Shown one piece after another: positions 2,061 through 61,740 of a stretch of 64,000 bases of DNA. Each line of letters opens with the position of its first letter. Position 1 is the first letter of the stretch. The translations under genes and the position numbers were made by a program. The stretch is from Eledone cirrhosa (taxonomy: Eukaryota): assembly GCA_964016885.1 (NCBI GenBank), contig OZ024751.1:28582001-28646000 (forward strand), written 5' to 3'. The notes under the pieces are model-generated. The model worked only from the letters and a program-made list of their open reading frames with translations. It was not told the DNA's origin and ran no database searches.

Positions 2061-2962
2061 CACATGTTATGTGATATAATATATATAAACACACAAGCAG
2101 GAAAAACGGACTTAAAATGAGATGATGATGATGATGATGATGATATATATATATATAGAGAGAGAGATAGATAGATAGATAGACAGATATATATACACAC
2201 ACACATACATATTATATATTATATATTATACGCTGAAATTATATTTATATATATACATATATAGATATATGACATGCACATATACACACTGAATGTATGC
2301 TATGCAAGAGTAAAATTTAATAGCAAGCCTAGTAAAGTAAGGCAATGGTGTAAAATATGTGTAATGAATGGAATCTCATCTGCTGTCCTATGAATAGTTT
2401 GATGCATGGATGAGTTTTAACTGATCAGTAATGTGTGAGAGGTTAGAGGTGAGAGGTAGGAACAAATAGGACGGGAGGGGAGATATGGAAGAAGACTATT
2501 ATTGGAGAGTGGAGGCGGGGGGGGGGGGGGGGGTACATATAGCTGGATCATGGTGGTGATGATGGTTTGGGTTGATGGCAATGATGACAGCAATGAAGGT
2601 GATGATGGTGGTGATGATGTTTGGGATGGTGGCAATGATGACAACAGAGATGGAGGTGGAGGTGGTGATGGTGATGAAGTTTGTCACTGAAAAGACCCTT
2701 GTAATTTAGAAACCAAGTTTTAATGGTGAAAAAGAAGAATAAATTGCTATTTAAGAAACTTCTTTTTTTTCTATTTCAGAATGACAAAAAAATCTAAACA
2801 TAAATGAAATAAAGTAAAATAAAATAATAAAAAAATAATAAAAAATAGAATAATAAAAAAAATATAAAAATATTTTTCAACACGACAGAGAAAGTGAGAG
2901 AAAATGGAATCTTTGAGAAAGAAGACTTGCTTTTTCCTACTATCATTATTATTATTACTATA

Positions 2963-3345
2963 GGCGGTGGATTGGCAGTATCGGTAGATATGTTTTGACA
3001 TACAGACTTACGGCCCTTGCCATTCTGAGTTCAAATCCCGCCGAGGTTAACTTTGCCTTTCATCCTTACGGGGTCGATAAAATAAAGTACCAGTAATACA
3101 CTGGGTAATTGCTGGCCTTGTGCCAAAAAGTAGAAACAATTATTATTTTTACTAATATTATTAGGGCGGTGGATTGACAGTATTGGTAGAGAGTCGGACA
3201 CCATGCTTTGCAGCATAGATTTACGGCCCTTTACGGTCTGAGTTCAAATCCTGCTGAGGTTAACTTTGCCTTTCATACTTATGGGGTCAATAAACTAAAG
3301 TACCAGTAATTATTGGCCTTGTGCCTATACAAGAAATCATTATTA
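2963..3345 (+). mobile_element. Two tandem copies of an (ATT)n-tailed tRNA-like SINE
   Basis: GGCGGTGGATTGGCAG head, GAGTTCAAATCC B-box, body TTTGCCTTTCATCCTTACGGGGTCGATAAAATAAAGTACCAG, 3' end CCTTGTGCC..AGAAA.CATTATT. Copies at 2963-3148 and 3164-3345. Confidence 0.8.
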
Positions 3346-3371
3346 GTCTAATCCATGGAAAAATAGACAAA

Positions 3372-3582
3372 ATTATTTTTAGCATAGGTACAAGGCCAGT
3401 AATTTGGGGAGAGGGGAAAGTCGATTAAATCGATCCCAGTACGTTACTGGTACTTTATTTTATCGACCCTGTAAAGATGAAAGGCAAAGTTAACCTCGGC
3501 GGAATTTGAACTTAGACTGTAAAGGACCGTAACTCTACACAGGAAAGCATGGCATCTCACTCTACCGATACTGCCAAACCAC
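3372..3582 (-). mobile_element. (ATT)n-tailed tRNA-like SINE
   Basis: Reverse complement of the family at 2963. The 5' end abuts (AAT)n at 3585. Confidence 0.8.
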
Positions 3583-4727
3583 AACAATAATAATAATAAT
3601 AATAATGATATTAAAAAATGCAAAGAAAGACAGATTATAGCCAGCAAATTTTTCCATGGTTAGATTCCAATAGAAGCAGTTGCCAAGGATACAGTAAAGA
3701 AAGGAATACATGCCAGGGAGTGGAAGGTTAGAGAAGAATGGAATATGGCTAGTTCTTGGAGAGATTATATATGCATGGCACCAAAGACATTCATTCACAA
3801 AATGAATAACTAAACAGGTTGCTTATTTTTTATAGCATGTGACAACACTATCTACACCCCCACCCTAGATATATATATATAGAGAGAGAGTGAGTGAGAC
3901 AGAGAGAGAAATAGAGATATAGAGAGAGAGTGAGTGAGACAGAGAGAGAAATAGAGATATATATAAAGAGTGAGAGTGAGACGGAGAGAAAGATATATAT
4001 ATAGAGAGAGAGAGAGTGAGTGAGACAGAGAGAGAAATAGACATTTATATATATAGAGAGAGAGTGAGTGAGACAGAGGGAAAGATAGAGACATATATAT
4101 AGAGAGAGTGAGTGAGACCGAGAGAGCAATAGAGAGAAAGACAGCAAGAGACTGAGGGAAAGAGACATAGAAATAGAGACAGATAGATAGAGAAAGAGAT
4201 AGATAGATATATAGATAGTGAGATAGAGAGAGAGAGAGACAGAGAAAGATATAAAGATAGATAGATAGCAAAAGAGAGAGAGGGGGAGGGGGGGGACAAA
4301 ACAAAACAAAAAGAACAAAAAAAAGATAGACAGGAAATTAAAATGCTAATCAAGTGAATTGAGAGAGAAAAAGAGAGGGGTAGAGAGAGAGAAAGGGAGA
4401 GTTGGTGCCTTGGAAAGAAAGAGAGAGAGGATGGAGAGAGAAGGAGATAGAATGAGACTGCAACTGAAGTGACTAGTATATGTTAGTTTTAAGAAGTTTA
4501 GAGAACAAGACTTGTTTTGGTGGAAATTCTCAATACAACAGATTAGACAACAAAACAAAGATAACCACAAATAAAATAAAATTAAATCTATGAAAAAAAT
4601 AATAAACAAAAGAGTGACTGGTGATGATGATGATGATGATGAAAAATTACAATAACCTTATTCCACCCCACCCATTGCCCAGCCCCAGCCCAGCAAAGTA
4701 AAATCGAAAAGAAAGAACAGTATATAT

Positions 4728-6813
4728 CATCATCATCATCATCACCGTGTTATGTCCTTTCTTCCACACTAGCATGGGTTAGACGGGTTGTCCTGTTGTG
4801 GGCAGTGTCCGGCCGGCTGACCTTGCCTTGCTCATACGGAACTGATTCTGGCTTGATTTCTACAGTTGGATGCCTTTCCTAACACCAACCTCATTTACAG
4901 TGAGTGCTGGGTGCTTTATTACATGGCACCTACATGTCCACTCTACAGTGTGGGCTGGGTGCTTTTTTGCCGTGGCACCTCCACGGCCACTTTGCAGTGG
5001 GAGGCTGTGGGGCATATTGTCTATATGCTTTGGATTGTACCCGTGGGGGAGGGGGGGGTCAGGTCTTCTATATTACTGCGTGACGTCAGAGAGGTGTAAT
5101 TGGGTAAGGTCGGCTTTTATCACCTCATCCCAGGTCTTCCTGGGTCTCCCCACTCCGCGATTTCCATCGACTTATAGTGCTCTGCACCTTTTTATGCAGC
5201 TGTCATCCTTCATATGCATCACATGTCCATATCAACGCAACCGACTCTCCTGCACACAGCATTTGATTCCTCTTATGCTCAGTCTCTCTCTCAATTCATT
5301 TATGCTTTGCCGTTCCCGTATATTACTGTTACACATCCATCGGAGCATGCAGGCTTCGTTTCTTTCTAATCTACACAAGTCTTCCACAGACAGCGCCCAG
5401 GTCTCACTACCATGTAACATTGCTGTTCGTATACACTTTCATTTTGAGGGAAAAGCCTTTTGCAGCTAGCAGTGGCAGTAGCTCCCTGAACTTCTTCCAT
5501 CCCATTTTTACCCTAGTTATTGTACTTTCTGAACACCCACCTCCGCTGCTAATTCAGTCACTTAGGTAGCAGAAGCTGTCTACTGTTTCTACAGAGCCCT
5601 CCCAGAGTTTGTTTCCTGTGGCTGTTTGCTGCTTGCTGTCCCAGCACAGCTGCTACATGTGAAGCCTACATTCTTAGTTAAGCTTCGTGAGATCCCGCTA
5701 CATCTCTTGTGTACCCATTGTTTGCATTTGGGGCAGAGAATGGAGTTCCTACCTACACATTTCCTACATACTGAGCAAGGCCATTTCCCTGAGGGGATCT
5801 GGGTTCTGTTTTCTCATCTACTTACAAGGACCTTAGTCTTTGTCAGGTTGACTTTGAGACCCTTTCTTTCTAGTCCATGCTTCCAAGTTTGGAATTTCTT
5901 CTCTAGTTCTACCATAGATTCAGCTATGAGTGCAAGGTCATCTGTATACAGGAGTTCCCATGGGCATCCGGTCTTAAACTCCTCCGTTATTGCCTGCAGG
6001 ACTATGATGAACAGGAGAGGGCTAAGAACAGAGCCCTGGTAGACACCGACCTGTACGCTAAATTCCTCACTATAGTCATTGCTAATCCTAACTTTGCTGA
6101 CTGCTCTCCTATACATGGCTTGTACAGCTTTCACAAGCCATTCATCTACTCCTAGTTTTCTAAGAGCCCACCAGATTATAGCACGGGGGACTCTGTCAAA
6201 GGCTTTCTCGAAATTGACGAATGCCAGGTAGAGTGGCTTACTTTTAGCTAGCTACTTTTCCTGTAACTGCCTCACTTGGAAGAGGGCATCAGTGGTGCCT
6301 CTTCCTGGCACAAACCCAAATTGCATCTCATCTAGTTTCACTCGGTCCTAATCAACTGTGCTATAACTCTTTCTGTTACTTTCATGACCTGGTCCATCAG
6401 CTTTATACCTCTATAGTTTCTTCTATCTAGTGCATCACCCACCTTTACCTTTGTAGCAGTTGACAATGATGCTGCTGCACCAATCCTTTGGTATGACACC
6501 TTCTAGTATTACCTGGTTAACAATATGTGTGACCTAACAACCCAGATGCCTTCAGCATCTCGGCAGCTATACCCGATGGACCAGTCGCCTTCCCGGTTTT
6601 CATATCTTTGATTGCCTTACTTACTACGCTGCTGCTGACTTGTACTGTTGGCCCCTCTATAGGGTCTACTTGGGGTAGGGTCTTTTCTTCCCATGCATTC
6701 TCCTCATTTATTAATCTATCATAATGGCTCTTCCACACATCTTTCTTCTCAGCACTTGTGAGGGCAAACTCACCTTTATCATTCCAGATACACTTCTCTC
6801 CATTGACATCACA
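4728..6813 (-). mobile_element. 5'-truncated, frameshifted RTE-like LINE (RT pseudogene)
   Basis: Peptides GKATGPSGIAAEMLKA, GVYQGSVLSPLLFIIVL, ELLYTDDLALIAES, GLKVNLTKTKVL and MLHGSETWAL in several frames. 3'UTR ends in (GAT)n. (TA)n at both junctions. Confidence 0.9.
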
Positions 6814-19069: not shown

Positions 19070-19205
19070 AAGTCAGATAGACTGCTTCATGTTATTTGTT
19101 TTAGTTCTCTACTCTCTGAGTTCAAATCCCGCCAAGGTCAACTTTGCCCTTCGTCCATTCACAGTCGATAGGAAAAAGTACCAGTCAAGTACTGGGGTTG
19201 ATTCT
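19070..19205 (+). mobile_element. Partial copy of the (ATT)n-tailed SINE family
   Basis: CTCTGAGTTCAAATCCCGCCAAGGTCAACTTTGCCCTTCGTCC..GTCGATAGGAAAAAGTACCAG. Confidence 0.65.
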
Positions 19206-20597
19206 TCCTCTATATTTCTTTCTCATTTCATCTGCTGTATTTAGACTTGGAGAAGATATGGGCTCAATCAGGTTTTTTTTAAATGTCCTGGAAATGCTGT
19301 ATATAAATACAATGCCTCTATGACTCCTTCAAGAGTTATAGGACCATGCATTCCTGCATCTCTAACTTGCATTGCACTGGCTTTCCCAATACAATTCTAA
19401 ACATTATTACTATAATAACAAAATAAGAAATAATCTATGAAAATGACCATTCATTAAGTATCCTTGCACTATTAACATGAATTAACAAAAAAAGTAAAGA
19501 AAACTCAACCACCATCTTGTTTTTTAAATCAAAAGAAAGAAACACACTTTTTATAGTTGACAATTTTTTCCGGTCAGGAAATGTCTTCATGACGACAGAA
19601 ACCATCAAAGAGAGAGCAAAATATAACAGACAAGTATTTTAGGGCTATTTTCCCCCTTACTTTAACAGCAAGGGGGGAAATAACCTTGCAGGTCCTTTGA
19701 CAGTCTTCATATTATACATATTATGGAGTCCTTTTTTTAAGGCAATGTTTTCTGATTGAGTGCCCTTCGTAATGCCCCCCCCCCCCCCATCACATGACAA
19801 CATGACACACGGGAATCAATATATTATAAATAGATAAAAAATAAAATAAATAAAATAACATGGAAATAGATTATAAATAAATTAATAACAAGAAAATCAG
19901 TGTAAGACATGATTATTTTTTTATTATTATTTCCTATGAAGTTTTTTTGTTTATTTTTTTTTATCAGGAAAGAAATATTGCAGCAGCAACAATAGTAGTT
20001 ATAGTAGTAGTTATAGTAGTAATAGTAGTAGTTATAGTAGTAGAAGTAAAAGTAGTAGTTATAGTAGTAGTAGTAGAAGTAATAGTAGTAGCAGTAATAG
20101 TAATAGTAGTAGAAGTAATAGTAGTAGTAATAGTAATAGTAGCAGTAATAGTAGTAGTAATAGTAGCAGTAATAGTAGTAGTAAGTTAGATGTTCTTTCT
20201 TTGACTAGGTATAAGTCTTACCCATGTGGGACACATACACACACACACACACATACATGCATACACACATATATACACATTCACACATACATTATACACA
20301 CACAAACAAATATTAAAACAAAAATAACAATAAAATAAATGAAAAAAAAAAATCAAACAAAAGTCTAACATTAATAACTTCTGTCCACGCCCCCCCCCCC
20401 CACACCCTCTCCCCTCACTGACTGATTCTTATTGAAAGAGTTTCTTGTAAACAATAAAGAATACTGATTAAATGGTTGAAATGGAATGGAATAAATAAAT
20501 ATATATATAGAGAGAGAAAGAGAGAGACAGACAGACAGATAGAAAGATAGAAAGATAGATAGACAGAAAGATAGATAGATATATAGATAGATAGATA

Positions 20598-21534
20598 TCT
20601 TTCTTTATTTGCCACAGGGGCGTACAAAAATGGGACATTACAAGATGTGACGGCAGGGTTTTTACATAAAAATAACAATAAACTATATATAATAAAATAA
20701 CAATTGAAATCCCCAATAGGGGGGAACGTTACTGCAGGGTTGTTATACACCCCGTGGATAGAACAACCCTCAACACCAGGAATACGTTTTGTAGGTGTTC
20801 CTGTCTTCCCTCTGTTTATCTTACTCAACCTACAGGTTTATATACAGTGAAGGGCCATTTTTGCCACATTCACCCACCTTTCAGCGAATTTATTGGGGTG
20901 TAGCACCTCTCTCTCCACTCGCACCTTCCTTCTGAAGTGATACTTAAAGAAGGGGATAAGTTGTTGTCTGGAGAGAAAGGTGTTTGTCCTCAGTCCTTTT
21001 AACCTCGTCCACCATATTACCTCTTTCGCCATAGCCACCAGACAGAGGAAAATCTCCTCTCCTTCGTTCTTAAATGAAGGCGGCGGGGTGATCCTCACGA
21101 TGGACTCGGCTGACAACTGGATGCGTCCCACACGTGACAGCAGCTGTTCGACATAATTCCACAGGTCAGTCACTCCTGGGCACTGAACAATTGCGTGCAG
21201 AATGGTTTCAATGTCCTGCTCGCATCTTGGACAGGTCCTTTTGGCAGGATCTCTGCCAGGGCGTCCGTGCCTGTAGATTTTGTCTCGAACTGGTAGAGCT
21301 CCTCAGTAGCACTGCTAGGCCAGAGACCTCTAGAAGTTATCCATAGGCCCTGGACGGAAAGTCCTCCCGAACAGACTGGTCAGTTCGTCCCCCTCGATGC
21401 CTAGAGTTTCCCCGAGAACATCGTCGCACTTATCCTCCACTAATCCCCTATAGAATGTCTAAGTGGAGTCTCCGCTGATTGCCGTTTCCGCTTGGTAGAG
21501 GGCTGTGAGTGCCTGTAGGCACTCGAGGTGCCAG
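20598..21534 (-). mobile_element. 5'-truncated Tx1-like element, (ATCT)n-associated subfamily
   Basis: Peptide DLWNYVEQLLSRVGRIQLSAESIVRI..WWTRLKGL..RWVNVAKMA is homologous to the ORF2 C-terminus at 28772. 3' end CTGTGGCAAATAAAGAAAG. (ATAG)n on both sides. Confidence 0.9.
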
Positions 21535-22711: not shown

Positions 22712-22902
22712 TATAATTGTTTCTACTTTTGGCACAAGGCCAGCGATTACCCAGTGTATTACTGGTACTTTATTTTATCGACCCCATAAGGATGAAAGGC
22801 AAAGTTAACCTCAGCGGGATTTGAACTCAGAATGGCAAGGGCCGTAACTCTTTGCTGCAAAGCATGGCGTCCGACCCTCTACCGATACTGCCAATCCACC
22901 AC
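22712..22902 (-). mobile_element. (ATT)n-tailed tRNA-like SINE
   Basis: Reverse complement of the family at 2963. Nearly identical to 54137-54295. Confidence 0.8.
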
Positions 22903-22934
22903 ACATACACATATAATGAGGACTGACCAGTAGA

Positions 22935-24574: not shown

Positions 24575-25869
24575 CAGGGTGTGGACGATATTTGTTCGCA
24601 ATTTTCAACTGCTAATTTTATGCAAATTTTTTTTACTTCCGTTGTCACTCTTGTCTTCATAAAAACAGTGACTATATTTCCATTATTTATTTTCAGAATA
24701 ATTGATTATGAATAATTTTGAACCTCCAAATTTGTGGAAGAGACACGGAGTTCTTCTTGGAATCCGCGCCAGGAGGACAAATAAGGAAATTTCAGACTTT
24801 CTCAGCATCAGCAGGAGAATGGTGGAAAAGGTCAGAAAGGAATTGGAAGATTCAGGATTCGACTACGAAGCAACATCAGAGAGGAAAACACATGATCGAC
24901 GATCTGACGCCTTCAGAACGCCCGAGTTCATCTCTGAAGTTCAGGATATCATCAACAATGAACCTAGCAAGTCAATGCGTGCCATTGCAAGGGAGAAAAG
25001 CGTGGATGAAAAGCTCATTAGGCTGGTGGTACATGAAGACATTCGCTACGTTTCATACAAGATGAGGAAAGGACAATTTCTGTCAAAGGCGAGTGCAAGA
25101 AAAGCGACTGAACCACACAAAGGAGCTGATCAACAAGTTGAAACACCCACTGGAGCCAGACATGCTGTGGTTTTTCTCCGACAAGAAAAATTTCTGCCAA
25201 GACCAGAAGATCAACTCCCAGAACAACAGGTGATTCGCTGTCTCATCCAAAGACGTGCCCAGAATCATGCAGACAAAGTTTCCAGCGACAACATTGGTCT
25301 TAGGTGTTGTCAGCAGTCAAGGTGACGTCATGCCACCTCCCTTCTTCCCTGAGGGCCTTAAGCTGAACACCGATGGCTACGTTCTGAGCGAGGTAGTAAA
25401 GCCCTGGATCGACCAGGTAGCTACAGGTAGGCCGTACGTGTGGCAGGAAGACTCAGCGCCCTGCCATACCAGCCGAAAAACCCAAGCCTGGCTGTCAGAG
25501 AACTTCGTCGACCACACTTCACCTGACATCTGGCCTCCCAGCTCGCCTGACTGCAAGCCCCTCGACTTCTTTGTGTGGGGCGCAGTGGAACGAGACACCA
25601 ACAGATCTAGCTGCAATATGAAAGACGATCTGAAGGCCAGGATCACAAGTGCCTTTAGAGGCCTAAGTTGGGGGACAGAAGGCCTGTAGCCGGTTCAGAG
25701 GCCGCCTTGAGGCCGTCATCAAAGCCAATGGCGGGTTTATCAAGTGAGATCAAAAGAACAAGTCATGAAGACAAATTGACCCAAGTTTGATAAATATATC
25801 CTAAAAAATAAAACTACTGTGTTATTTTCCTAGACAGTTTTCTTGCGAACAAATATCGTCCGCACCCTG
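24575..25869 (+). mobile_element. Full-length Tc1/mariner-superfamily DNA transposon, DD37D (maT-type)
   Basis: 27-bp TIRs CAGGGTGYGGACGATATTTGTTCGCAA with 1 mismatch, TA on both flanks, 1295 bp long, transposase inside. Confidence 0.92.
24708..25747 (+). pseudogene. Disrupted DD37D transposase
   Basis: HTH-like N-terminus, WFFSDKKNF, WQEDSAPCHTS and WPPSSPDCKPLDF, with 37 residues between the 2nd and 3rd Asp. Frameshift near 25090, in-frame TGA at 25231-25233, and a further lesion near 25675. Confidence 0.88.
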
Positions 25870-28468: not shown

Positions 28469-28510
<42 letters not shown>

Positions 28511-28771
28511 TTTCTTTATTAACCACAAGGGTTTACATAAAGTAGACATTAAGGACAGTGCAGGACAATGCAGGACGGTACAAATGGGCATTTCTGCGTG
28601 TAAAAAAAACAAAAATAGAGGATGTAACAAAAATAACAATGAAAATAACAATGAAAAATTCCCCAATAGGGGGGAGACTTCGGAGGAACATTTGTGGAGA
28701 AAGCCCAGTAAAAAGCCACAATGACCCTGACCACCAAGGCAAGTGCCCTCTCCCAGTTTTCCACCTTTAGT

Positions 28772-31700
28772 TTACAGATATATACTCAGAGTCGGCCCAT
28801 TCACTCGGGCCATTCTTGCTTCTCTCACCCATCTTTCAACAAAATGCTGGGAAGAGAGCACTTCCTTCTCTACTCTGATTTTCCTTTTCAAATGAAATTT
28901 GAAAAAGTCAATCAGAGCATCACCGAAGAGGTAAGTGCTCGTCTTCAGCCCTTTCAAACGTGTCCACCATACTATCTCTTTCGCCATGGCCACCAGACAG
29001 ATAAAAACTGCCTGCCCTTCCCGGCTAAAGGAGGAGGGCGGGGCAATCCTCACGATAGACTCAGATGATAGCTGGATCCGTCCTAAACGCGACAGCAGGT
29101 GTTCGACATAAACCCACAAGTCAGCAATTTTCGGACACTGGACGAGTGCGTGCAGGACGGTTTCGTCGCCCTGCGCGCATCTCGGACATGCCCGGCTGAC
29201 GGCACCTCCATGCCTGTAGAGTTTATCCCGAACTGGCAAGGCTCCTCGGTAGCACTGCCAGGCCAGAGATTTCTGGAAGTTGTCCATAGGCCCTGGCCCG
29301 AAGGTTCTTCCGAAGAGATTGGCTAGTTGATTTTCGTCGACGCCTAGAGTTTCCCCAAGTACGTCGTCGCTCTTCCCCTCCACTAATCCTCTATAGAACG
29401 CCGAGGTGGAGTTTCCACCGATCACATTGCCCGATTGGTCGAGGGCTGTGAGCGCCTGAAGACATTCCAGTCTCCAGGCGCTCCCTCTCGGTCTTCGCTT
29501 GACCCAGGACTGCAGCTCCGTCAAGGAAACGAGCTGGGGAAAAACGCGTCTAGCAAACGGCGACCACACCTGATCACCGTCGAGGAAGAGGTGGAGATGT
29601 CGTAGCCTGAGCGCGTGCCTGCGCATCATCAGCCACGGCATGCCCAGCCCTCCACGTAGCGGGTGTTGACAACAGATGGACCGCCTGACCATCGGAGCAC
29701 GTCCCTTCCACAAAAAGCGAAAGAGCAAACGCTCCAGCGCAGTCAGGCGAGGCTTAGGACAAGGTACGACGGTTAGGCGGTAGCAGATGACAGACGCGAT
29801 GTACGCGTTAGCCACCTCCGCTCGACCTTTCAGGGATAGCTTCCTCTCCGCCCATTTCTGGGTGAGAGAAGCCACCCTGCTCGTCACCTCGTCCCAGTTT
29901 TTGTCCGTCTGGAGGTCCGGACCGAACCAGACCCCTAGCAATTTAACCGGTCCGTCCGTCCAGCGCCCGACGACGCTGTTGGACGGCATGGACCTGCCTC
30001 TCCAGGTGCCGAGCTGCAGGCCCACTGACTTTTCCTGGTTGATCATTGCTCCTGTCACCGCTTCGTATTCTCTTAGTGTAGTGCCGATCGCCTCGATGTG
30101 TTTGGCGTTCGACACCACTACGGTGACATCGTCCGCATATGCTGACACGGATCTTCCGCATCCTAGTTCGCGCGGGACTCCCCTCAACGTCTCCAGTTTG
30201 TGCAGTAATGGCTCGAGAGTCAATACGTACAAGAGGGACGAGAGGGGACATCCTTGGCGGACCGAGCGCATGATGTTGAACGGTTCCGACAGGTGACCGT
30301 TCACTCTCACCACAGAGCAGATGTCGCTGTGCATGGCAGCGATCCAGCCTCTGAAGACGGGCCCAAAGCCAGCCGCCCTCAGGACTGCCGCTAGGTAACG
30401 ATGGTCGACCCTATCGAAAGCTTTCGACTGATCTAAATTGATCAAGGACCCACCCGTGCCAGGTTCCCTAGCTACCTTCTCTACGATGTATCGCATGAGG
30501 TGGAGGTTGTCGTGGATGGATCTGTCGGGAATGGCGCATGTCTGCGCCTCTCCCACCAGACCACCAACGACAAGCGCCAACCTCTTTGCTAGCACCTTGG
30601 CCAAAATCTTAAACTCTGTGTTTAGCAGAGTTATGGGCCGGAAATTGTCTATGTTATCCCCCTTGTTCGGATCCTTTCTCAGCAGTGCCACCGCTCCTCG
30701 GCTCACAGAACTGGGAATTCTCCCGTTCTGTTGCCAGTTGCAGTAGACGTCCGCCAAGAGGCCTCCGAACAAGTCTGGCATCTGTACGTAAAGTTCATAG
30801 GGCAGACCATCCAAACCAGGCGATTTACCCCTTGTGCAGCCAGTCATTGCCTCCCTTACTTCAGCGGCTGTTATCGGCTTTTCGCAACACTTCGCCTCAG
30901 TGGCCGAGAGCCGCGGCAGTCCGTCGAGGTAGACACTAAAGTCCATCCCTCTACCCGGCCCCCCGCTGCCCCCGAACAGCTGAGCGAAGTGTCGCTGAAA
31001 AGCTTCACACATTTGCCCGGGATCGAGTAGCATGCGCCCGTCGTGGTCCACCAAAGACCGGATCGTGGCTTTGTTGCCACGACGCGCCTCCGCCACTCGG
31101 GCCCATTGAACGGCTTTCGTCCCCTCGTGTCTGAGAGCACGCACCCTAGCTCTGACAACGCAGCCTTCGTGCTTTGCATTGAAGAATTGGTCAAGGGCCA
31201 ATTTCGCCGCAAGCACGTCGGTCGCAATGCCTTTGCTAAGCGCCTCGTCTAATTTTCTAACTAGTTCTCCCTCTGCTCTATTTTTCTCTATTGCTAAAGC
31301 CTTACTAAACCTAATCGATTCTATTCTAATCGCTCTTTTCAGAGCAAACCACCACTTGTTGTTGACGATGGCCCCCGTCAACGCCCGCTTAACTAGTTCG
31401 CTAATCCGGTCTCTGTAGGCCTTGCGCGCTGGTAAGGACGCGTTTAGCTTCCAGTAGCCGGGTCCTCGTCTATGAAGCCTATCTAAGTCAAGCACACAGA
31501 TCACGAATTTGTGGTCCGTGTAGCTGACTATCTTGAATTGTGGACAGCCTATGCTAGACCTATCTATTTCCCTACAAAATACTCTATCTAGATATGATCT
31601 GGATGACCCTATGCGGTTTGTCCAAGTCCACATTGGCACATTCGGGAAATCCAATCGGTACCTGTCAGACAGTTCAAAACGCCTGAGCAGGTTGGTGAGG

Positions 31701-32191
31701 CTCTTGCACCCTCCACCCCTATCCGCTAATCCCACACAGTCCCAGCGTGCATCTAAGATCCCGTTCCAGTCGCCCACTAACACTAAAGAGCGCGACGTTC
31801 CAAGAAAGGTCTCCAGACGCCGGAAGAAATCAGGCCGCCCTGCTCCTGTCGGGGCATAGACGGCCACTAGCCTGAAAGCTTGCCCGTCTCCGCTGGTCAC
31901 GTCCAGCACCACCAGCTTACCCTCTGGGTCCAGGAAGATGGCCCGTATGGCGAGATCCAAACCTCTCCGAAAAAGCACAGCAACTCCTCCACCGGATCCA
32001 GGACGGCTGGGAGATGCGTACACATCGTAGCCGCCGAAGATCGGTGCGAAGGCCCGTGCTTCGGAGATTCTGGTCTCGCTGATGGCCACTACATCTATGT
32101 TTAGTGACCTGAGGTCGTTGAGCAGGTGACCCTGCTTCCATGACGACCCCAAGCCACGCGCATTTATGCTGCCTATTCTGAGTGAGGTCAT
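28772..32191 (-). CDS. ORF2 polyprotein: AP endonuclease + reverse transcriptase + C-terminal Zn finger (1139 aa)
   Basis: APE motifs SINARGL, ISET, VYAP, GDWN, SYLD and TDH. RT motifs KSPGLDGL, NFRPITLLN, LDQSKAFDRV, RQGCPLS and AYADD. C-terminal CPRC..ETVLHALVQC. Confidence 0.97.
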   Translation of the reverse strand: MTSLRIGSINARGLGSSWKQGHLLNDLRSLNIDVVAISETRISEARAFAPIFGGYDVYASPSRPGSGGGVAVLFRRGLDLAIRAIFLDPEGKLVVLDVTSGDGQAFRLVAVYAPTGAGRPDFFRRLETFLGTSRSLVLVGDWNGILDARWDCVGLADRGGGCKSLTNLLRRFELSDRYRLDFPNVPMWTWTNRIGSSRSYLDRVFCREIDRSSIGCPQFKIVSYTDHKFVICVLDLDRLHRRGPGYWKLNASLPARKAYRDRISELVKRALTGAIVNNKWWFALKRAIRIESIRFSKALAIEKNRAEGELVRKLDEALSKGIATDVLAAKLALDQFFNAKHEGCVVRARVRALRHEGTKAVQWARVAEARRGNKATIRSLVDHDGRMLLDPGQMCEAFQRHFAQLFGGSGGPGRGMDFSVYLDGLPRLSATEAKCCEKPITAAEVREAMTGCTRGKSPGLDGLPYELYVQMPDLFGGLLADVYCNWQQNGRIPSSVSRGAVALLRKDPNKGDNIDNFRPITLLNTEFKILAKVLAKRLALVVGGLVGEAQTCAIPDRSIHDNLHLMRYIVEKVAREPGTGGSLINLDQSKAFDRVDHRYLAAVLRAAGFGPVFRGWIAAMHSDICSVVRVNGHLSEPFNIMRSVRQGCPLSSLLYVLTLEPLLHKLETLRGVPRELGCGRSVSAYADDVTVVVSNAKHIEAIGTTLREYEAVTGAMINQEKSVGLQLGTWRGRSMPSNSVVGRWTDGPVKLLGVWFGPDLQTDKNWDEVTSRVASLTQKWAERKLSLKGRAEVANAYIASVICYRLTVVPCPKPRLTALERLLFRFLWKGRAPMVRRSICCQHPLRGGLGMPWLMMRRHALRLRHLHLFLDGDQVWSPFARRVFPQLVSLTELQSWVKRRPRGSAWRLECLQALTALDQSGNVIGGNSTSAFYRGLVEGKSDDVLGETLGVDENQLANLFGRTFGPGPMDNFQKSLAWQCYRGALPVRDKLYRHGGAVSRACPRCAQGDETVLHALVQCPKIADLWVYVEHLLSRLGRIQLSSESIVRIAPPSSFSREGQAVFICLVAMAKEIVWWTRLKGLKTSTYLFGDALIDFFKFHLKRKIRVEKEVLSSQHFVERWVREARMARVNGPTLSIYL

Positions 32192-32226
32192 GTTTAAAAT
32201 AGAGTGGAAAAGATGGGAAAGACCAC

Positions 32227-34233
32227 TTACCGTATTTTTGGTAGAGGAGGGATGGTTTTTACATCCCTTTTCACTTGATCGTCTGGTGAAGGGACCGTTG
32301 AATCGTCCCTTCGGCTGGTCGTCGGCTCTTCTAAGAGAATGTCTGAATATACTCTTCGATTAATGGTTCCTCCTAGGTCCCTGAAATCACCAACTGCGTT
32401 GGGGAATTTCGTTTTAATGTTTGTGTATTGTTTCTGTGCTATTTTTAGCAGTCTTATGTTAGTTGGCGTTTTGATTGGTGCTGGTATTATGTAGTCCTGT
32501 TGTGAAATGTCTGTGTGTTCAATTATGTAAGTCATTAGTTTCTTGTTGTGTGTGTTTATTGCCGTGCATTTGTTTTTCTGGGGGTGGGGTGTGGTTCTGC
32601 TATTTTCTTGTCGTTGTTGCTGGGTGTGTGTGTTTTGTTGTTGTGTTTGCGATGTTGGTGCTTGTGGTGTTGAAGGTGTTGTTGGCGGTGGGGTTGTCGC
32701 CGGTGGTGATGGTGGTGCTGGTGTGGGTGGTGATGGTGTTGGTGGTGTTGCTGCTGTGGGTCTCTTTGCAGTAGACTTTACCCTTTTCTCATTTCTTTCC
32801 TCCCTTTTCAAAGGCGACGATGCGCTGCTTCTGCGTTTGTGCCTTCTTGAGACCTTTTGCCATCCCTCTCCCACCTCACACTCCATGTCTGATTCTGTAA
32901 GGTCGGGGAGGGGTACCAGCTCCACTCTTTCACTTGTTGTTGTTGGTGATGTTTGCACTGGAGTCTCTGTTGCAGCTGCATTTGGTATTGCTGTTGTTGT
33001 TGTTAATATTTCCACTGCTGCTGCTGTCTTTGATTTCCGTGGAGTGGGTATGGGTGCCACGGACCTATCGTTCCTGGTTGCCGCTTGTCCTGTTGCTGGT
33101 AGCCGTGGAACCGGATTCGGGAGGAGGGGGGTTTTCTCCTTTCTCAGGGTCTTCTCGTTGCAGAAGGCCCTGAGGTGAGTCTTCGATCCACAGCGAAAGC
33201 ATTTCGGGCGTTTGCCCTCAACACTTATGGGCAGTTGAGTGCCGTTATCGAAGTCTATCACATCCGGGATAGCTTCGATGCACTCCTGGTTGGTTTGGAT
33301 TAGCATCTCAATGGAGGAGCCGACCCAATCTTCTCTTACTTTTTTCTGTACTTGCAGTACAGTTGTTTTGTCCTCGATTCCGACGAGGACAGACGCGGCC
33401 AGCCAAGAAGGGGTCATTCCGGGGGGGACGTGGGTCAGTTTGACCCTCACAATTTTTTGCCCGCAGTAGGAGGGCACCAACACCATTTCCTCGCTCCTTA
33501 GGGTCACTACTGATTGGGCCTTTGCCTCCTGGGGTGTGGCAAAAAGTACGTCTACGGTGGCGTATTTTTTGCCTCGGGTGATGTGCGTTTTCCTCTGCCA
33601 CACAGACCCCAAGGCTTTTTGTATTTGGGCCTCTGTGGCTCTTTCCACCCTACGGGATTTTGTACTTACTGTACGGTACGTGACCGTACAGTGCTCTTGG
33701 GTTTCGAAAAAATTTTTCGCTGCCTTGCAGATTGCTCGGTGTCCGTTCTTTGTCACCATCTTCTTCGCTTCCTCTAATTCCTCATTTGTTATGAGGATTG
33801 TTTCCAGGTTTTTCGCAATACCTGCAAATGAGATTGGTTTTTCTCTGCTGTTGTTGTTGTCGTCAGAGCTGCTGGTACTTTTGTTGTTGCTGCAGGTACT
33901 ACGACTACTGCCTCCGCCGCTGTTGCTGTGGTTGTTGTTGGTGTTGCTGCTGCTAATGCTGTTGTTGTTTATGCTGCTGGTGATGCTGTTGCGGCTGCTA
34001 CTGTTGTTTTCATTGTCACTGTTGCTGTTGTTATTACGGCTGCTACTGCTATTATTCCTGACGTCAGACGAATGAACTGGGTTTTCGTATTTCCCGCACA
34101 CCTGTTTCGTCGCTGTCGTCGTCGTCGTGGAGAAACCTTGCACGCTTTGCACGAGACTTTTCTTTTCTTTCGTCACTTGCGAAAGAGAAGGGAGGGAGAG
34201 AGACACATTTAAAGAAGGGAGGGAGAGAGACAA
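32227..34233 (-). CDS. ORF1 gag-like nucleic-acid-binding protein
   Basis: CX2CX4HX4C knuckle CFRCGSKTHLRAFC, GWQKVSRRHKRR motif and a Pro/Thr-rich C-terminus. The frame is open from 34233, but the first in-frame ATG is at 33759, so the start is uncertain. Confidence 0.85.
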   Translation of the reverse strand: MSLSLPSLNVSLSLPSLSQVTKEKKSLVQSVQGFSTTTTTATKQVCGKYENPVHSSDVRNNSSSSRNNNSNSDNENNSSSRNSITSSINNNSISSSNTNNNHSNSGGGSSRSTCSNNKSTSSSDDNNNSREKPISFAGIAKNLETILITNEELEEAKKMVTKNGHRAICKAAKNFFETQEHCTVTYRTVSTKSRRVERATEAQIQKALGSVWQRKTHITRGKKYATVDVLFATPQEAKAQSVVTLRSEEMVLVPSYCGQKIVRVKLTHVPPGMTPSWLAASVLVGIEDKTTVLQVQKKVREDWVGSSIEMLIQTNQECIEAIPDVIDFDNGTQLPISVEGKRPKCFRCGSKTHLRAFCNEKTLRKEKTPLLPNPVPRLPATGQAATRNDRSVAPIPTPRKSKTAAAVEILTTTTAIPNAAATETPVQTSPTTTSERVELVPLPDLTESDMECEVGEGWQKVSRRHKRRSSASSPLKREERNEKRVKSTAKRPTAATPPTPSPPTPAPPSPPATTPPPTTPSTPQAPTSQTQQQNTHTQQQRQENSRTTPHPQKNKCTAINTHNKKLMTYIIEHTDISQQDYIIPAPIKTPTNIRLLKIAQKQYTNIKTKFPNAVGDFRDLGGTINRRVYSDILLEEPTTSRRDDSTVPSPDDQVKRDVKTIPPLPKIR

Positions 34234-34550
34234 TCTTCTCTCTGCTGTAGTGATGATTGAGGAAGAAGAAGACGGAATGAGTGGGAGTGACGTATGAAAT
34301 TTTTTTTTTTGGTAGCCATGTTTTTTTGTTTAAAATGAAATTTTGGGTACAAAACCCCAATAACTGGTTATTTAACCCCGAAGGGCCAAATAACGGACAG
34401 AAAGACCCCTCTCACGAGGAGGAGGGTGTCTTTATCAACAATTTGGTTCAAGTTTTAAGCAATTTACAATTGTTTTAACGGTTAAAAATTACTATACCTT
34501 ACAGAGCCGAGCCTCCGTCAACCATGGCATTCAATAATAATAATAATAAT

Positions 34551-35055
34551 GCTTTCTTTATTAACCACAAGGGTTTACACAAAGTAGACATTAAGGACAG
34601 TACAGGACAGTACAAAAGGGCATTTCTGCGTGTAAAAAAAACAAGAAACAGAGGATGTAATAATAGAGCAATGAAAAAATTCCCCAATAGGGGGGAGACT
34701 TCTGAGGGACATTCGTGGAGAAAGCCCATTAAAAAGCCACAGTGACCCTGACCACCAGGGCAAGTGCCCTCTCCTAGTTTTCCACCTTTAATTTACAGAC
34801 ACATACTCAGAGAAGGCCCATTCACTCGGGCCATACTTGCCTCTCTCACCCATCTTTCAACAAAATGTTGGGAAGAGAGCACTTCCCTCTCTACCCTGAT
34901 TTTCCTTTTCAAATGAAATTTGAAAAAGTTAATCAGGGCATCACCAAAGAGGTAAGTGCTCGTCTTCAGCCCTTTCAAACAAGTCCACCATACTATCTCT
35001 TTCGTCATGGCCTTCCCGGCTAAAGGAAGAGGGCGGGCAATCCTCACGATGGACT
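34551..35055 (-). mobile_element. 5'-truncated copy of the same Tx1-like family, directly upstream of the full-length copy
   Basis: Highly similar to 28509-29060 with short internal deletions. Its (ATT)n tail abuts the 5' end of the full-length element. Confidence 0.92.
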
Positions 35056-35131: not shown

Positions 35132-35162
<31 letters not shown>

Positions 35163-35163
<1 letters not shown>

Positions 35164-35758
35164 TTTCTTTATTGGCCACAAGGGCTGACATAAAGAAACA
35201 CATTACAGATGGCACAGGACGGTACGATGTGGGTTTTGTGTGTGTAAAGATTTTTATTATTTATATAAGAAAAGAAGAGAAAAAAGACATAGAAACATAT
35301 ATATATATATAAACAATAAAAATGTAAATTGAAACAATGAAAAATTCCCCAATATGGGCGAAACCTCTGAGGGTTACTCGTGGCAAAAACCTCACAAAAG
35401 ACCACGGCCACCCTGACCACCAGGGCAAGCGCCCTCTCTCAGTTTTGTACTCCTCAGTCTACAGGCGCATACTCAGGGCGGACCCGTTCACTTGGGCCAT
35501 TCTCGCTACATTCACTCACCTTTCAACAAACGTACTAGAAGACAACACTTGCCTCTCCACCCTGATTTTCCTCTTCAAGTGAAACTTGAAAAAGTTAATT
35601 AGGGATTCACCGAAGAGGAAAGTGTCCGTCTTCAACCCTTTCAACCTTGTCCACCACACAATCTCTTTCGCCATGGCCACCAGGCAGATGAAACTGCCTG
35701 CCCTTCCTCTTCTTTAAAGGAGGATGGCAGGGCTATCTGCACAATGGACTCAGTCGGT
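35163..35758 (-). mobile_element. 5'-truncated Tx1-like element, diverged (ATT)n subfamily
   Basis: Homologous ORF2 C-terminus, 3' end CCCTTGTGGCCAATAAAGAAATC(ATT)n, and TAATAAT at the 5' junction. Confidence 0.85.
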
Positions 35759-37700: not shown

Positions 37701-38130
37701 GGCCAGGGTAGTTGGTTATCATTATTATTATCATTATTGTTGTAAATATTATGAATACTCGATCTACTGTCTGTAGAGTGTCAACAAATGACCTTAGACA
37801 GACGGACAGTACTTTTTTGAATACATGTACAGTGTCCAGCAGGGAAGTCTTTTATAGGAGAACAATTTGTGTGTTTTCTTTTTGCTGGGGGTCTAAATAG
37901 CTCAAAGATACACTCACAGTTTAATGGTATCGATCTCAAAGCTCCTATGGACAACTTGATGTTGTTAGGTGGCATTGACCATATATAGACAATTTCCATC
38001 TTCAAGTCAGAATATTTCATTAATATTTTTCAATTTCATTTAAGGCTTTGTTTTGGTCCCCTGGGATGGTAGCATTAATAGTCTGGCAGTCACACCTATT
38101 TCTCTACATAACAACAATGCTATTATTATT

Positions 38131-38732
38131 TTGGCAGTATCAGTAAAGCATCGGACACCATGTTTTGTAGCATGGAGTTATCGCCCTTTGCATTCTAAGT
38201 TCAAATCCTGCCAAGGTTAACTTTGCCTTTCATCCTTACGGGGTCGATAAAATAAAGTACCAGTCACGCACTGGGGTCGATTTAATCGACTTTCCCCTCC
38301 CCCAAAATTGCTGGCCTTGTGCCTATATAAGAAACCATTATTTTGGCAGTATCGGTAAAGTGTCGGACACCGAGCTTCGTAGCATGGAGTTATGGCCCTT
38401 TATGTTCTAAGTTCAAATCCCGCCAAGGGTAGCTTTGCCTTTCATCTTTACAGGGTCGATCAAATAAAGTACCAGTAAGCACTGGGGATGATTTAACTGA
38501 CTTTCCCCTCCCCCAAAATTGTTGGTCTTGTGCCAAAAGTAGAAACAATTATTATTATAGATATAGTGGTTTGGCAGTATTGGCAGAACATTGGACGACA
38601 TGCTTTGCAGCACATAGTTATGGCTCTTTACATTCTGAGTTGAAATCCTGCCGAGGTTAGCTTAGCCTTTCATCACTATGGGGCTCGATAAAATAAAGTA
38701 CAAATTGTTGGCCTTCTGCCTAAATCAGAAAC

Positions 38733-38745
<13 letters not shown>
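38131..38745 (+). mobile_element. Three head-to-tail copies of the (ATT)n-tailed SINE
   Basis: Units at 38131-38342, 38343-38556 and 38566-38745, each TTGGCAGTAT..GTTCAAATCC..TTTCATC..GTCGAT..CCTTGTGCC..AGAAAC.ATTATT. Confidence 0.85.
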
Positions 38746-47017: not shown

Positions 47018-47206
47018 TATGCTAGCTATTCATTGTATTGCATTCAATTCTACCAGCCTGGTATTTAGTGTTCTTGTATATATAATCACCTGTCAAAATG
47101 GAAACTGAGCAATGAGCATTATATTCAGCACCATGCAGATAGATAGATAGATAGATAGATTATATATAGATAGATAGATAGATTGACTTATAGATAGATA
47201 GATACA

Positions 47207-47313
47207 TTTCTTTATTAGCCACAAGGGCACAAAAGAAGGGGACAAATACAAATGGGGAGTTTACATACAGGTATATGAAAATAAAACTATTAATAAAATA
47301 ACAAATAACAACG
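47207..47313 (-). mobile_element. Tx1-like 3'-terminal fragment within (ATAG)n
   Basis: Minus strand ends CCCTTGTGGCTAATAAAGAAATG(TATC)n. (ATAG)n on both sides. Confidence 0.7.
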
Positions 47314-48040: not shown

Positions 48041-48306
48041 TATATATATATACATATATCTATATATATATACATGCATTCATATATATGCATATATATA
48101 CATACATACATATATATATATAGAGAGAAACATGTGTGTATTCATATGTATGCACAATAAACTGCCATTCGCCATTTCTAAAATGGAAGAAACGAAACAA
48201 TTATGACCTGTGTATGTTATTGATTTTTACATTTTGCTGTCCTACCTCTTTTTTTTTTTTTTTAATCTTTTTGGTTGATGAGGGGAATGTCATTATTGTT
48301 ACTATT

Positions 48307-49645
48307 GGGAGGAAGCTATCACTGAAAGGTCGCGCGGAGGTGGCGAATGCGTACATCGCGTCCATCATCTACTACCGCCTGACCGTCGTGCCTTGCTCCC
48401 CCGTCCGCGCCTCGTCAAGTTGGAACGGCTCCTCTTCAAATTCTTGTGGAATGGACAAGGTCCGTTGGTGAGGTGGTCCATCTGCTGCCACCACCCTCTA
48501 CGCGGAGGGCTTGGCATGCCGTGGCTAATGATGCGCAGACATGCGCTGAGGCTGCGACATCTCCAGATATTCTGCCTAAACGGTGAACAGGTGTGGTCGC
48601 CGTTTATCAGACAGGCCTTTCTGCAGCTCATTTCTTTGACTGAGCTGCAGTCCTGGGTCAAGAACAGACCGAGACTGGGTGATTGGCACCTGGAATGTTG
48701 CCAGGCACTCACTGCCCTCTACCAAGCGGGCAATGCGATCAGTGGAACTTCCACTCTCGAGTTCTATAGAGGATTAGTGGTGGGCAAGTACGATGACGCA
48801 CTCGGAGAAGCTTTGGGCCTCGACGAAGTCGAACTGATCAGTCTGTACCGGAGGACTTTCGAGCCGGGGACGATGGACAATTTCCAGAAATCCCTCGCTT
48901 GGCAGTGTTACTGGGGGCACTGCCGGTCCAGGATAAACTCTACAGGCATGGAAGTGCTGTCAGACGGACCTGCCCAAGATGGGCACAGAGCGACGAAACC
49001 GTTCTGCATGCACTTGTCCAATGTCCGTGCATTACTGACTTGTGCAGCTATGTCGAACAGCTACTGTCGCGTGTGGAACGAATCCGGCTATCGACCCGCC
49101 ACCTTCCTTAGGTCAGGAAGAGCAGGCAATTTTCCTCTGTCTGGTGGCCGTTGCGAAAGAGGTTATATGGTGGACCAGATTAAAAGGACTGAAGATGGAC
49201 ACTTTTCTCTTCGGCGAATCCCTCATCAACTTCTTCAAGTTTCACCTGGTAAGGAAGGTGAGGGTGGAGAGAGAAGTGCTGCCCCCCAGTAAATTTGCTA
49301 AAAGGTGGATGAATGTGGCGAGAATGGCCCCTGTGAATGGGCCTACTCTGACCATGCACCTATAGGCTAGCTAACTTGAGGAGAGGGGTGCTATCCCTGG
49401 GTGCCCTAGAAGCGCAGGGTGGTTCAGGATTGGTGGGGTACCTGAGTCACCCCTGGGTCGTCCACGCCCTATCGGGGAATTTATTTTGTTATATTTATGC
49501 ATAGTTTATTTTATATTTTCATAGTTTCATTGTTAAATTAGTCTTGCCATTGTGCACTTTTACTCGACCTTATTGTAAACCCCACTGTCCGTGTCTTTGT
49601 ATTGTCCCTACATGTCTGCTCTTGTGGCTAATAAATGAAATCACT
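48307..49645 (+). mobile_element. 5'-truncated, frameshifted Tx1-like element, (ATT)n-associated
   Basis: RKLSLKGRAEVANAYIAS, GGLGMPWLMMRRHALRLRHL, FQKSLAWQCY, CPRWAQSDETVLHALVQCP and NGPTLTMHL. 3' end CTTGTGGCTAATAAATGAAATCACTATTATT. ATT-like repeat at the 5' junction. Confidence 0.92.
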
Positions 49646-49656
49646 ATTATTATTAG

Positions 49657-49715
49657 TGGGTAATTGCTGGCCTTGTGCCAAAAGTAGAAACAATTATTAT
49701 TATTATTATTATTAT
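49657..49715 (+). mobile_element. 3' fragment of the (ATT)n-tailed SINE inside the tail of a Tx1 copy
   Basis: TGGGTAATTGCTGGCCTTGTGCCAAAAGTAGAAACAATTATTATT. Confidence 0.8.
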
Positions 49716-60746: not shown

Positions 60747-60759
60747 GAAAATGAAATGA

Positions 60760-60793
<34 letters not shown>

Positions 60794-60796
<3 letters not shown>

Positions 60797-61677: not shown

Positions 61678-61740
61678 TATATATATATATATATAAATAT
61701 ATTTAAATATATATATATATACTATTTATATATACTATAT

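What the first reader, a model, noticed from the sequence alone, without database searches (positions are those of the whole stretch)
2963..3582. tRNA-like SINE that shares its 3' end and (ATT)n context with the Tx1 element: candidate SINE-Tx1 partnership
Seen: SINE ends GGCCTTGTGCCTATACAAGAAATCATTATTA (3315-3345) and GGCCTTGTGCCTATATAAGAAACCATTATT (38313-38342), versus Tx1 ends CCCTTGTGGCCAATAAAGAAATCATTATT (35163 region) and CCCTTGTGGTTAATAAAGAAATCATTATT (28509 region). Many SINE copies start right after ATT repeats. Established: SINEs borrow the 3' end of their partner LINE, and most known partners are L2, CR1, RTE or poly(A) L1. Inference: this abundant SINE is mobilised by the Tx1-like ORF2 and inherits its microsatellite targeting.
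Basis: partly seen in the sequence, partly recalled or inferred. Interest (0 to 1): 0.7.

Follow-up and report, generated by a model that had tools for sequence, protein, structure and literature searches.

The report
SINE likely rides Tx1 retrotransposon enzymes
A very abundant short jumping element, in what is likely an octopus-type genome, ends in nearly the same 24 letters as the genome's Tx1-like long retrotransposons and inserts at the same ATTATT site, so it likely borrows their copying enzyme, a pairing rarely described.

Summary
The quoted strings are at the stated places. 2963-3582 holds three copies of an abundant SINE (about 175 hits per Mb). Its last 24 nt match five Tx1-like families in register at 14-19/24, against 6-11/24 for seven other LINE ends. 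SINE copies carry target-site duplications (at least 9 bp in 34/63 and, in a hold-out sample, 32/61; controls about 10%) that begin at ATTATT on the sense strand, as Tx1 insertions do. A CR1 with its own ATT tail and Dong/R4 elements fit neither tail nor junctions. SINE and Tx1 tails share a CUUGU loop on a 3-4 bp stem with compensatory changes, but the SINE hairpin is not favoured in full-length folds. Two corrections: the SINE target is a short Y|ATTATT seed, not a microsatellite ((ATT)3 in only 14/124), and the SINE wave looks older than the young element carrying ORF2 28772-32191, so older ATT-targeting Tx1 families are likelier drivers. Mobilisation is untested. Crocodilian SINEU-Tx1 is a precedent, inferred from targets alone; I found no tail-sharing Tx1-SINE pair in eight searches. 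This scan noted the same pairing earlier elsewhere in this genome (e1-9580941).

The parts
2945..2960 (+). Left copy of the 16-bp target-site duplication of SINE copy 1, starting ATTATT after a C
   Evidence: sequence; 15/16 identical to 3139-3154
2963..3138 (+). SINE copy 1, short variant with an internal deletion in the head; shared stem-loop motif at 3114-3124
3139..3154 (+). Right copy of the duplication of SINE copy 1
3164..3338 (+). SINE copy 2: A/B-box head, central body, Tx1-like tail; 8-bp duplication at 3157-3164 and 3339-3346
3315..3338 (+). 24-nt tail shared with Tx1-like 3' ends: 3-bp stem (3315-3317 with 3323-3325), CTTGT loop (3318-3322), 16 nt from loop to end
3380..3582 (-). 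SINE copy 3, long variant, decayed tail; preceded on its own strand by the ATT run at 3586-3614
28509..34532 (-). Full-length young Tx1-like LINE (family A), about 6.02 kb, ATT runs on both sides
28772..32191 (-). ORF2, 1139 aa: APE-type endonuclease, reverse transcriptase, zf-RVT; closest solved structures are LINE-1 ORF2p
32227..34329 (-). ORF1 reading frame (700 codons stop to stop), no Pfam family
28509..28533 (-). Family A tail: 4-bp stem and CTTGT loop (28533-28521), AATAAA, no poly(A)
34551..35053 (-). 5'-truncated Tx1 fragment (85% to family A); the full-length copy starts in its ATT flank
35162..35756 (-). 5'-truncated copy of older ATT-targeting Tx1 family B (5' end approximate)
48306..49642 (+). 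5'-truncated copy of ATT-targeting Tx1 family C (5' end approximate)
49657..49692 (+). Tail-only SINE copy directly behind the family C end, ATT on both sides
47206..47290 (-). 3' fragment of a Tx1 family with the same tail that sits in (ATCT)n instead of (ATT)n (5' end approximate)
38130..38735 (+). Tandem cluster of three SINE copies joined by short ATT spacers; includes the end at 38313-38342
22718..22903 (-). SINE copy with a duplication starting ATTATA, not a microsatellite

Best explanation
This abundant SINE ends in a 24-nt tail that matches the 3' ends of the genome's Tx1-like LINEs and is flanked by duplications that start at ATTATT, and it is likely copied in trans by the ORF2 protein of ATT-targeting Tx1 families. 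Shown: tail match, identical loop-to-end spacing, duplications, strand-biased target, and misfit of the other LINE ends examined. Inferred: Pol III transcribes the SINE from its A/B boxes; Tx1 ORF2 binds the CUUGU stem-loop, nicks the strand opposite Y|ATTATT, primes reverse transcription at the tail (perhaps helped by AUUAUU pairing) and cuts the second strand about 9-20 bp on. The main wave was probably driven by the older families B and C or their ancestors rather than the young family A.
For: Tail: 14-19/24 for 5 of 5 Tx1-like ends, 6-11/24 for 7 of 7 other LINE ends. Duplications of at least 9 bp: 34/63 and 32/61 in an independent hold-out; shuffled-pair controls 11% and 9%. Median length 14, range 9-26, n=57, closer to the L1-group mode of 13-15 bp than the RTE mode of 10-12 bp quoted in PMC6007223 (passage). 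Target: C at -1 in 32/57; ATTATT upstream in 30/63 and 27/61 versus AATAAT in 4/63 and 4/61. Family A has ATT runs before 30/30 5' ends. By eye an ATT run stands at the 5' junction in 7/15 truncated family C and 9/26 family B copies, but in 1/24 CR1-ATT copies. SINEs lie within 90 bp behind Tx1 C and B ends on the same strand in 9/30 and 5/30, opposite in 0 and 1; background 39/3000. Stem pairs change together between families: pair 2 is C-G in Tx1 and G-C in the SINE; pair 3 is G-C in B, C and the SINE, A-T in A. In SINE stems, pair-keeping C>T outnumbers pair-breaking G>A 23:8 (p=0.011, 182 tails) and 7:1 in the hold-out (p=0.07, 51 tails); the body control shows no such bias. 46 of 246 copies start at profile position 41 or later and keep the tail. 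An exact genome-wide pattern for a SINE-type stem with AATAAA gave 16 hits: 15 SINE copies, 1 tail-only copy, no LINE.
Against: The shared stretch is short and imperfect, and the SINE lacks the AATAAA. ATCT-targeting Tx1 families match the tail as well or better (17-19/24), so the tail does not name the driver family. The SINE hairpin is weak: 0 of 4 SINE 45-mers fold it as minimum-energy structure versus 4 of 5 Tx1 tails; mean pair probability is 0.83 with 10 nt upstream but 0.09 in full-length copies. 13 of the 23 pair-keeping changes are at one position and may be one subfamily. The SINE target is far laxer than family A's. No SINE lay within 90 bp behind 30 family A ends. Age comparisons are biased: Tx1 sets are best hits, the SINE set is unselected. 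Only 1 Mb plus targeted loci of 3 Gb was read, so a rare or extinct LINE could be missed. About 45% of tailed copies show no duplication of 9 bp or more.
Confidence: 0.8

Rival explanations
1. The partner is the CR1-like LINE that also ends in (ATT)n; the ATT context comes from it and the Tx1 likeness is chance.
For: 30/30 copies end in C followed by ATT repeats; SINEs sit behind 4/30 of its ends on the same strand; CR1 is a common SINE partner (PMC3747384).
Against: Tail match 9-11/24, at the null level. Its ATT run is on the 3' side only (no run at the 5' junction in 23/24, by eye), whereas SINE copies duplicate ATTATT on both sides.
Confidence: 0.04
2. The tail came from a Tx1 long ago, but an unseen or extinct LINE with a laxer ATTATT preference (most simply another Tx1 lineage, possibly another clade) made most copies.
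For: The SINE target is laxer than that of family A; the tail has diverged from all five Tx1 ends scored; the survey covers a small part of the genome.
Against: In 1 Mb sampled, tail-like motifs were 121 SINE, 18 Tx1-like and 32 other; the 17 hold-out 'other' rows I read showed no recurring family, nor did the orphans. The genome-wide pattern found no such LINE.
Confidence: 0.12
3. Tx1 ORF2 moves the SINE through target pairing and general RNA access only; the hairpin is a non-functional relic.
For: Hairpin not favoured in full-length SINE folds. The right-hand copy of the duplication fits ATTATT better than the left at 13 versus 2 positions in 46 copies, or 8 versus 2 without one mis-anchored copy, a hint that the RNA end carries AUUAUU. 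SINEU is ascribed to Tx1 with no shared tail (PMC4494074).
Against: Loop and stem positions are 92-99% conserved in 182 tails, with compensatory and wobble-biased changes; loop-specific recognition is established for L2 LINEs (PMC4176376, passages). This rival overlaps the best explanation: same partner, different recognition.
Confidence: 0.3
4. Dong/R4 or RTE elements, both abundant in octopus genomes, are the partner.
For: Both are reported abundant and recently active in octopus (PMC13282606, PMC8967140; passages), and both occur in the sample.
Against: RTE ends carry (GAT)n or (TA)n and score 6-11/24; one R4 end scores 9-11/24. A second Dong/R4 family ends in (AAT)n on its sense strand, the opposite orientation, with no CTTGT motif by eye (not scored).
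Confidence: 0.03

Closest known systems
Crocodilian SINEU and Tx1-Mar (Kojima 2015, PMC4494074; parts 1 and 3 of 5 and passages read)
   Same: A SINE inferred to be moved by Tx1-clade LINEs because both prefer the same target; tandem copies sandwiching a duplication; SINE preference often weaker than the LINE's.
   Different: SINEU has snRNA heads and a poly(A) tail, targets a Mariner element, and no LINE sharing the SINEU-1 3' end was found. Here the head is tRNA-like, the tail is shared with Tx1, there is no poly(A), and the target is ATTATT.
Maize and sorghum ZmSINE2/ZmSINE3 with LINE1-1_ZM; Chlamydomonas SINEX-3 with L1-1_CR (PMC3472496, PMC3747384; passages and Table 1)
   Same: L1-group LINE sharing a short 3' end with a tRNA SINE; in maize a hairpin with conserved loop and compensatory stem.
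   Different: Plant and algal L1 lineages, not Tx1; different loop; no sequence-specific target described in the passages seen; longer shared stretch (about 50-80 nt).
Stringent L2 pairs: UnaL2 with UnaSINE; ZfL2-1 and ZfL2-2 (PMC4176376; passages)
   Same: 3' stem-loop whose loop is read specifically and whose stem can be exchanged: the model used here.
   Different: L2 clade and shown by experiment; here L1/Tx1 group and inferred only.
Microsatellite-targeting Tx1 families Kibi and Koshi, and crocodilian (TTCC)n/(TTTC)n Tx1 (PMC4494074)
   Same: Tx1-type LINE inserted in a simple repeat.
   Different: Targets here are (ATT)n and, for sister families, (ATCT)n; no partner SINE is described for them in the text seen.
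Octopus tRNA SINEs OK, OR1, OR2 (Ohshima and Okada 1994; not held; OR1 and OR2 are named as CORE-SINEs in PMC4824008 and PMC4758252; the name OK is recalled)
   Same: Abundant tRNA-type SINE in a probable octopod; this family may be one of them or a relative.
   Different: Sequences could not be compared; no partner LINE is given for them in the passages seen.

Membership tests
SINE | Short (<700 bp), non-coding, high copy, dispersed | tested here: met
   About 185-220 bp; 95 profile hits in 600 kb and 80 in 400 kb
SINE | Signs of target-primed reverse transcription: duplications and 5' truncation with the tail kept | tested here: met
tRNA-derived SINE (SINE2) | Internal Pol III A and B boxes | tested here: met
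   A-box-like in 25/42 and B-box-like in 31/42 full-length copies, about 53-55 nt apart; box patterns are recalled; transcription not tested
tRNA-derived SINE (SINE2) | Head homologous to an identifiable tRNA | tested here: inconclusive
   ARAGORN and Rfam find no tRNA; against 10 tRNA-like genes of the genome the best alignment is reached by 5 of 500 shuffles, and the best tRNA differs by copy
CORE-SINE / MetaSINE / octopus OR1-OR2 | Conserved central domain | tested here: inconclusive
   By eye no likeness to bivalve Meta-SINE rows and only a few letters in common with BivaCORE-SINE2 (supplement); octopus and Sepia consensus sequences are in figures or papers not held
Tx1 clade LINE | Two ORFs; ORF2 with APE endonuclease, RT and C-terminal zinc motif; L1 group | tested here: met
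   best solved relatives LINE-1 ORF2p, E 4e-52
Tx1 clade LINE | Sequence-specific target | tested here: met
   ATT runs before 30/30 5' ends and on both sides of 19/19 full-length copies
Tx1 clade LINE | RT tree places it with named Tx1 elements | not testable with these tools
   Homologues returned carry no useful names; no named Tx1 reference was on hand. The label rests on architecture and target.
Stringent SINE-LINE pair | Shared 3' end sequence | tested here: met
   short (24 nt) and 58-79% identical
Stringent SINE-LINE pair | Conserved 3' stem-loop | tested here: inconclusive
   Favoured in Tx1 A, B and D (pair probability 0.6-0.9), covarying, but weak in full-length SINE folds
Stringent SINE-LINE pair | Overlapping period of activity | tested here: inconclusive
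   Compatible with B and C, not with the burst of A; biased samples
Stringent SINE-LINE pair | Tail needed for mobilisation in trans | not testable with these tools
   needs a retrotransposition assay

The most novel reading that the evidence does not exclude
Tx1 retrotransposons here are stringent, poly(A)-free LINEs that read a CUUGU stem-loop kept across families with different targets (ATT and ATCT), and one of the most abundant SINEs of this genome hijacked that signal: a tail-sharing Tx1-SINE pair, not found in the papers searched, in which the passenger spreads to hundreds of thousands of short ATTATT sites while the driver keeps to long ATT arrays.
Probability: 0.5. Interest if true: 0.68.

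Novelty: new variant of a known kind. Interest (0 to 1): 0.52.

Why it matters
SINEs make up about 11.6% of the Octopus vulgaris genome (PMC13282606, passage), and no driver LINE is named for them in the passages I saw. A Tx1 partner would supply one and would predict where these SINEs land. It also bears on whether animal L1-group elements once read a specific 3' hairpin before mammals relaxed to poly(A), a question raised in PMC3472496 with plant and algal examples only. An intact young ORF2 and a 24-nt tail make the test small and direct.

Tried and rejected
tRNA scan of the window: none. Rfam on 2900-3650: only sub-threshold hairpin hits caused by the inverted copies 2 and 3. Metagenome scan for ORF2 relatives: none confirmed. 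Homologue and cluster look-ups gave no useful names. The protein atlas gave no answer. Sequencing runs: no RNA holder listed. Of eight runs laid, X1 (organism A) and X6 (organism C, another study) held the SINE at depth, with ends followed by ATTATT and no tail variant at 15% or more; X9 held 1717 contigs; X5, X7, X8 and X14 held 3-71 contigs and X22 none, so I rejected reading the many organism labels as wide distribution or horizontal transfer. One search's duplication test was mis-registered by 2 nt and was redone; only its profile-start counts are used. Gilbert and Labuda 1999 and Albertin 2015 were not held under the ids tried; Ohshima and Okada 1994 and Repbase entries were not seen and may already describe this family. 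Rejected: CR1-ATT, RTE and Dong/R4 as partners; pure microsatellite targeting; MetaSINE identity on the bivalve rows seen.

Full report
Observation. The interval 2963-3582 holds three copies of one SINE: 2963-3138 (+) with a 16-bp duplication (2945-2960 and 3139-3154, 15/16 identical), 3164-3338 (+) with an 8-bp duplication, and 3582-3380 (-) with a decayed tail. The genome is 3.0 Gb in 1796 contigs. That it is an octopus-type cephalopod is an inference from its repeat content and from earlier scan notes, not a call result.

The SINE. I read 100 stretches of 10 kb at round-number positions: 600 kb for discovery and 400 kb as hold-out. A profile gave 95 and 80 hits, which extrapolates to roughly half a million hits genome-wide. 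In the discovery set 64 of 94 hits had the tail and 63 had usable flanks (the rerun gave 94 rather than 95); in the hold-out 61 of 80. Short and long variants differ by about 30 nt ahead of the tail. A-box-like and B-box-like motifs occur in 25/42 and 31/42 full-length copies, but no parent tRNA was identified. The central domain could not be assigned.

Insertion signature. Duplications of at least 9 bp were found in 34/63 and 32/61 copies; flanks paired at random gave 11% and 9% on average, at most 21%. In 57 copies the duplication has median length 14 (range 9-26), starts at ATTATT and follows C in 32 and T in 15; the first five positions had to match by construction. ATTAT lies within 30 bp upstream in 40/63 and 37/61 copies against 6% background. 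Three ATT units occur in only 8/63 and 6/61 (background 0.2%). AATAAT is only slightly enriched (4/63 and 4/61 against about 2%). The target is therefore a short, strand-biased seed; long ATT arrays are enriched but are the minority. 46 of 246 tailed copies begin at profile position 41 or later, and tail-only copies exist, as expected from reverse transcription that starts at the tail.

The LINEs. The element at 28509-34532 has two reading frames; ORF2 has endonuclease, RT and zf-RVT domains and is closest to LINE-1 ORF2p among solved structures. Of 20 copies fetched whole, 19 had both ends, an intact 1195-codon frame and 99.6-99.8% identity. All 30 5' ends examined follow an ATT run, although the query held no ATT, and 15 of 30 3' ends are followed by another copy (counted by eye). 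Older families B and C also end at ATT runs; other families with the same tail sit in (ATCT)n. 'Tx1' rests on architecture and target; no tree with named references could be built.

Tail test. The last 24 nt of three real SINE copies were compared without gaps, allowing a shift of 3, with 12 LINE ends taken from real copies. Five Tx1-like ends scored 14-19 (reached by at most 17 of 5000 shuffles); seven others (two CR1-like, four RTE-like, one R4-like; clade labels from recalled protein motifs) scored 6-11, like the null of about 9. The loop lies 16 nt from the end in the SINE and in families A and B, 17 in C. The ATCT-targeting families score as high as the ATT-targeting ones, so only the target points to A, B and C. 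The most serious rival, a CR1-like element ending in (ATT)n, has the run on its 3' side only. A Dong/R4 family ends in (AAT)n, the other orientation. An exact pattern for a SINE-type stem followed by AATAAA found 16 places in the genome: 15 SINE copies and one tail-only copy.

Hairpin. Among 102 Tx1-like tails the three commonest stems (33, 24 and 23 copies) keep three pairs around CTTGT. The SINE has the same loop, with pair 2 inverted; family A replaces pair 3 by A-T. All three pairs are intact in 161 of 182 SINE tails, and pair-keeping transitions exceed pair-breaking ones 23:8, then 7:1 in the hold-out; 13 of the 23 are at one site. Against this, the hairpin is the minimum-energy fold in 4 of 5 Tx1 tails but in 0 of 4 SINE 45-mers, and its pair probability in full-length SINEs is 0.09. 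An earlier scan note (e1-9580941) had reported the same hairpin and target elsewhere in this genome. It appeared before my hairpin tests, so it is not independent support; the numbers here are my own.

Timing. Unselected SINE copies differ from their majority by a median of 6.9%, minimum 3.4% (n=51, subfamilies pooled), and the best 40 hits to a typical copy are 94-98% identical apart from itself. Family A is essentially unmutated. Best hits of families C and B are 95-96% and 92-95% identical to their window copies. SINEs lie directly behind 9/30 C and 5/30 B ends but 0/30 A ends; the order of insertion cannot be read from this. The SINE wave thus predates the burst of A and plausibly overlaps B and C.

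Mechanism. Most likely (0.8) a Tx1 ORF2 copies the SINE RNA by target-primed reverse transcription at Y|ATTATT. Recognition through the CUUGU hairpin is less sure (about 0.55), by analogy with L2 elements (PMC4176376, passages). A weak asymmetry between the two copies of the duplication hints that the RNA end carries AUUAUU and pairs with the target.

Literature. Searches. The only SINE-Tx1 link found is SINEU with Tx1-Mar, inferred from shared targets, with poly(A) and no shared tail found for SINEU-1 (PMC4494074). Table 1 of PMC3747384 (58 pairs, read whole) lists no Tx1 partner and no cephalopod SINE. Passages of two octopus repeat papers and one mollusc paper list L1-Tx1 and SINEs but name no partner. 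The original octopus SINE paper, Repbase and most subscription journals were not searchable, so novelty is provisional.

Verdict. A real and well-supported SINE-LINE association; a new variant of a known kind; interest 0.52.

Noticed in passing
window 3164-3338 and 3380-3582: Copies 2 and 3 are inverted and about 40 bp apart, so a read-through RNA could form a long duplex, a possible ADAR substrate.
   Followed up: no
window 47206, 20597-21533; L112, L114, L115, L318, L336, L346: Sister Tx1-like families with the same tail end at (ATCT)n instead of (ATT)n: a target switch with a conserved RNA end.
   Followed up: partly
L036-L055; G000:C1 234.60-234.61 Mb, C11 49.99-50.03 Mb: The young Tx1 family often forms head-to-tail arrays separated only by ATT runs (15 of 30 3' ends).
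   Followed up: partly
L038, L042, L043, L056, L317: Young Tx1 copies often abut, in antisense, the (AAT)n end of a Dong/R4-like family; CR1 (ATT)n tails also attract SINEs. Several element families appear to share the same ATT arrays.
   Followed up: partly
L112:9187, L109:3611, L080:5127, L107:7402, L110:4572, L091:9449; window 19104-19203: An older SINE subfamily shares the head and body but continues into a different tail without the Tx1 motif: possible tail exchange and another partner.
   Followed up: no
window about 34300-34320 (-): The first ATG of ORF1 appears out of frame with the long ORF1 frame across an A homopolymer; a real change or an assembly slip.
   Followed up: no
G000:C1 348.86-348.91 Mb (L285, L286): The same SINE insertion recurs every 9.6 kb, indicating a tandem segmental array.
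   Followed up: no
runs X5, X7, X8, X14: Runs under other organism labels hold the young Tx1 words but only traces of the SINE; most simply low-level contamination.
   Followed up: partly
window 60159-60679 (-), 4726-5324 (-), 60755-61700 (+), 24702-25689 (+): Other decayed elements: RTE-like ends with (GAT)n, a CR1-like fragment with a (TA)n flank, and a fragment resembling a Tc1/mariner transposase (label recalled).
   Followed up: no
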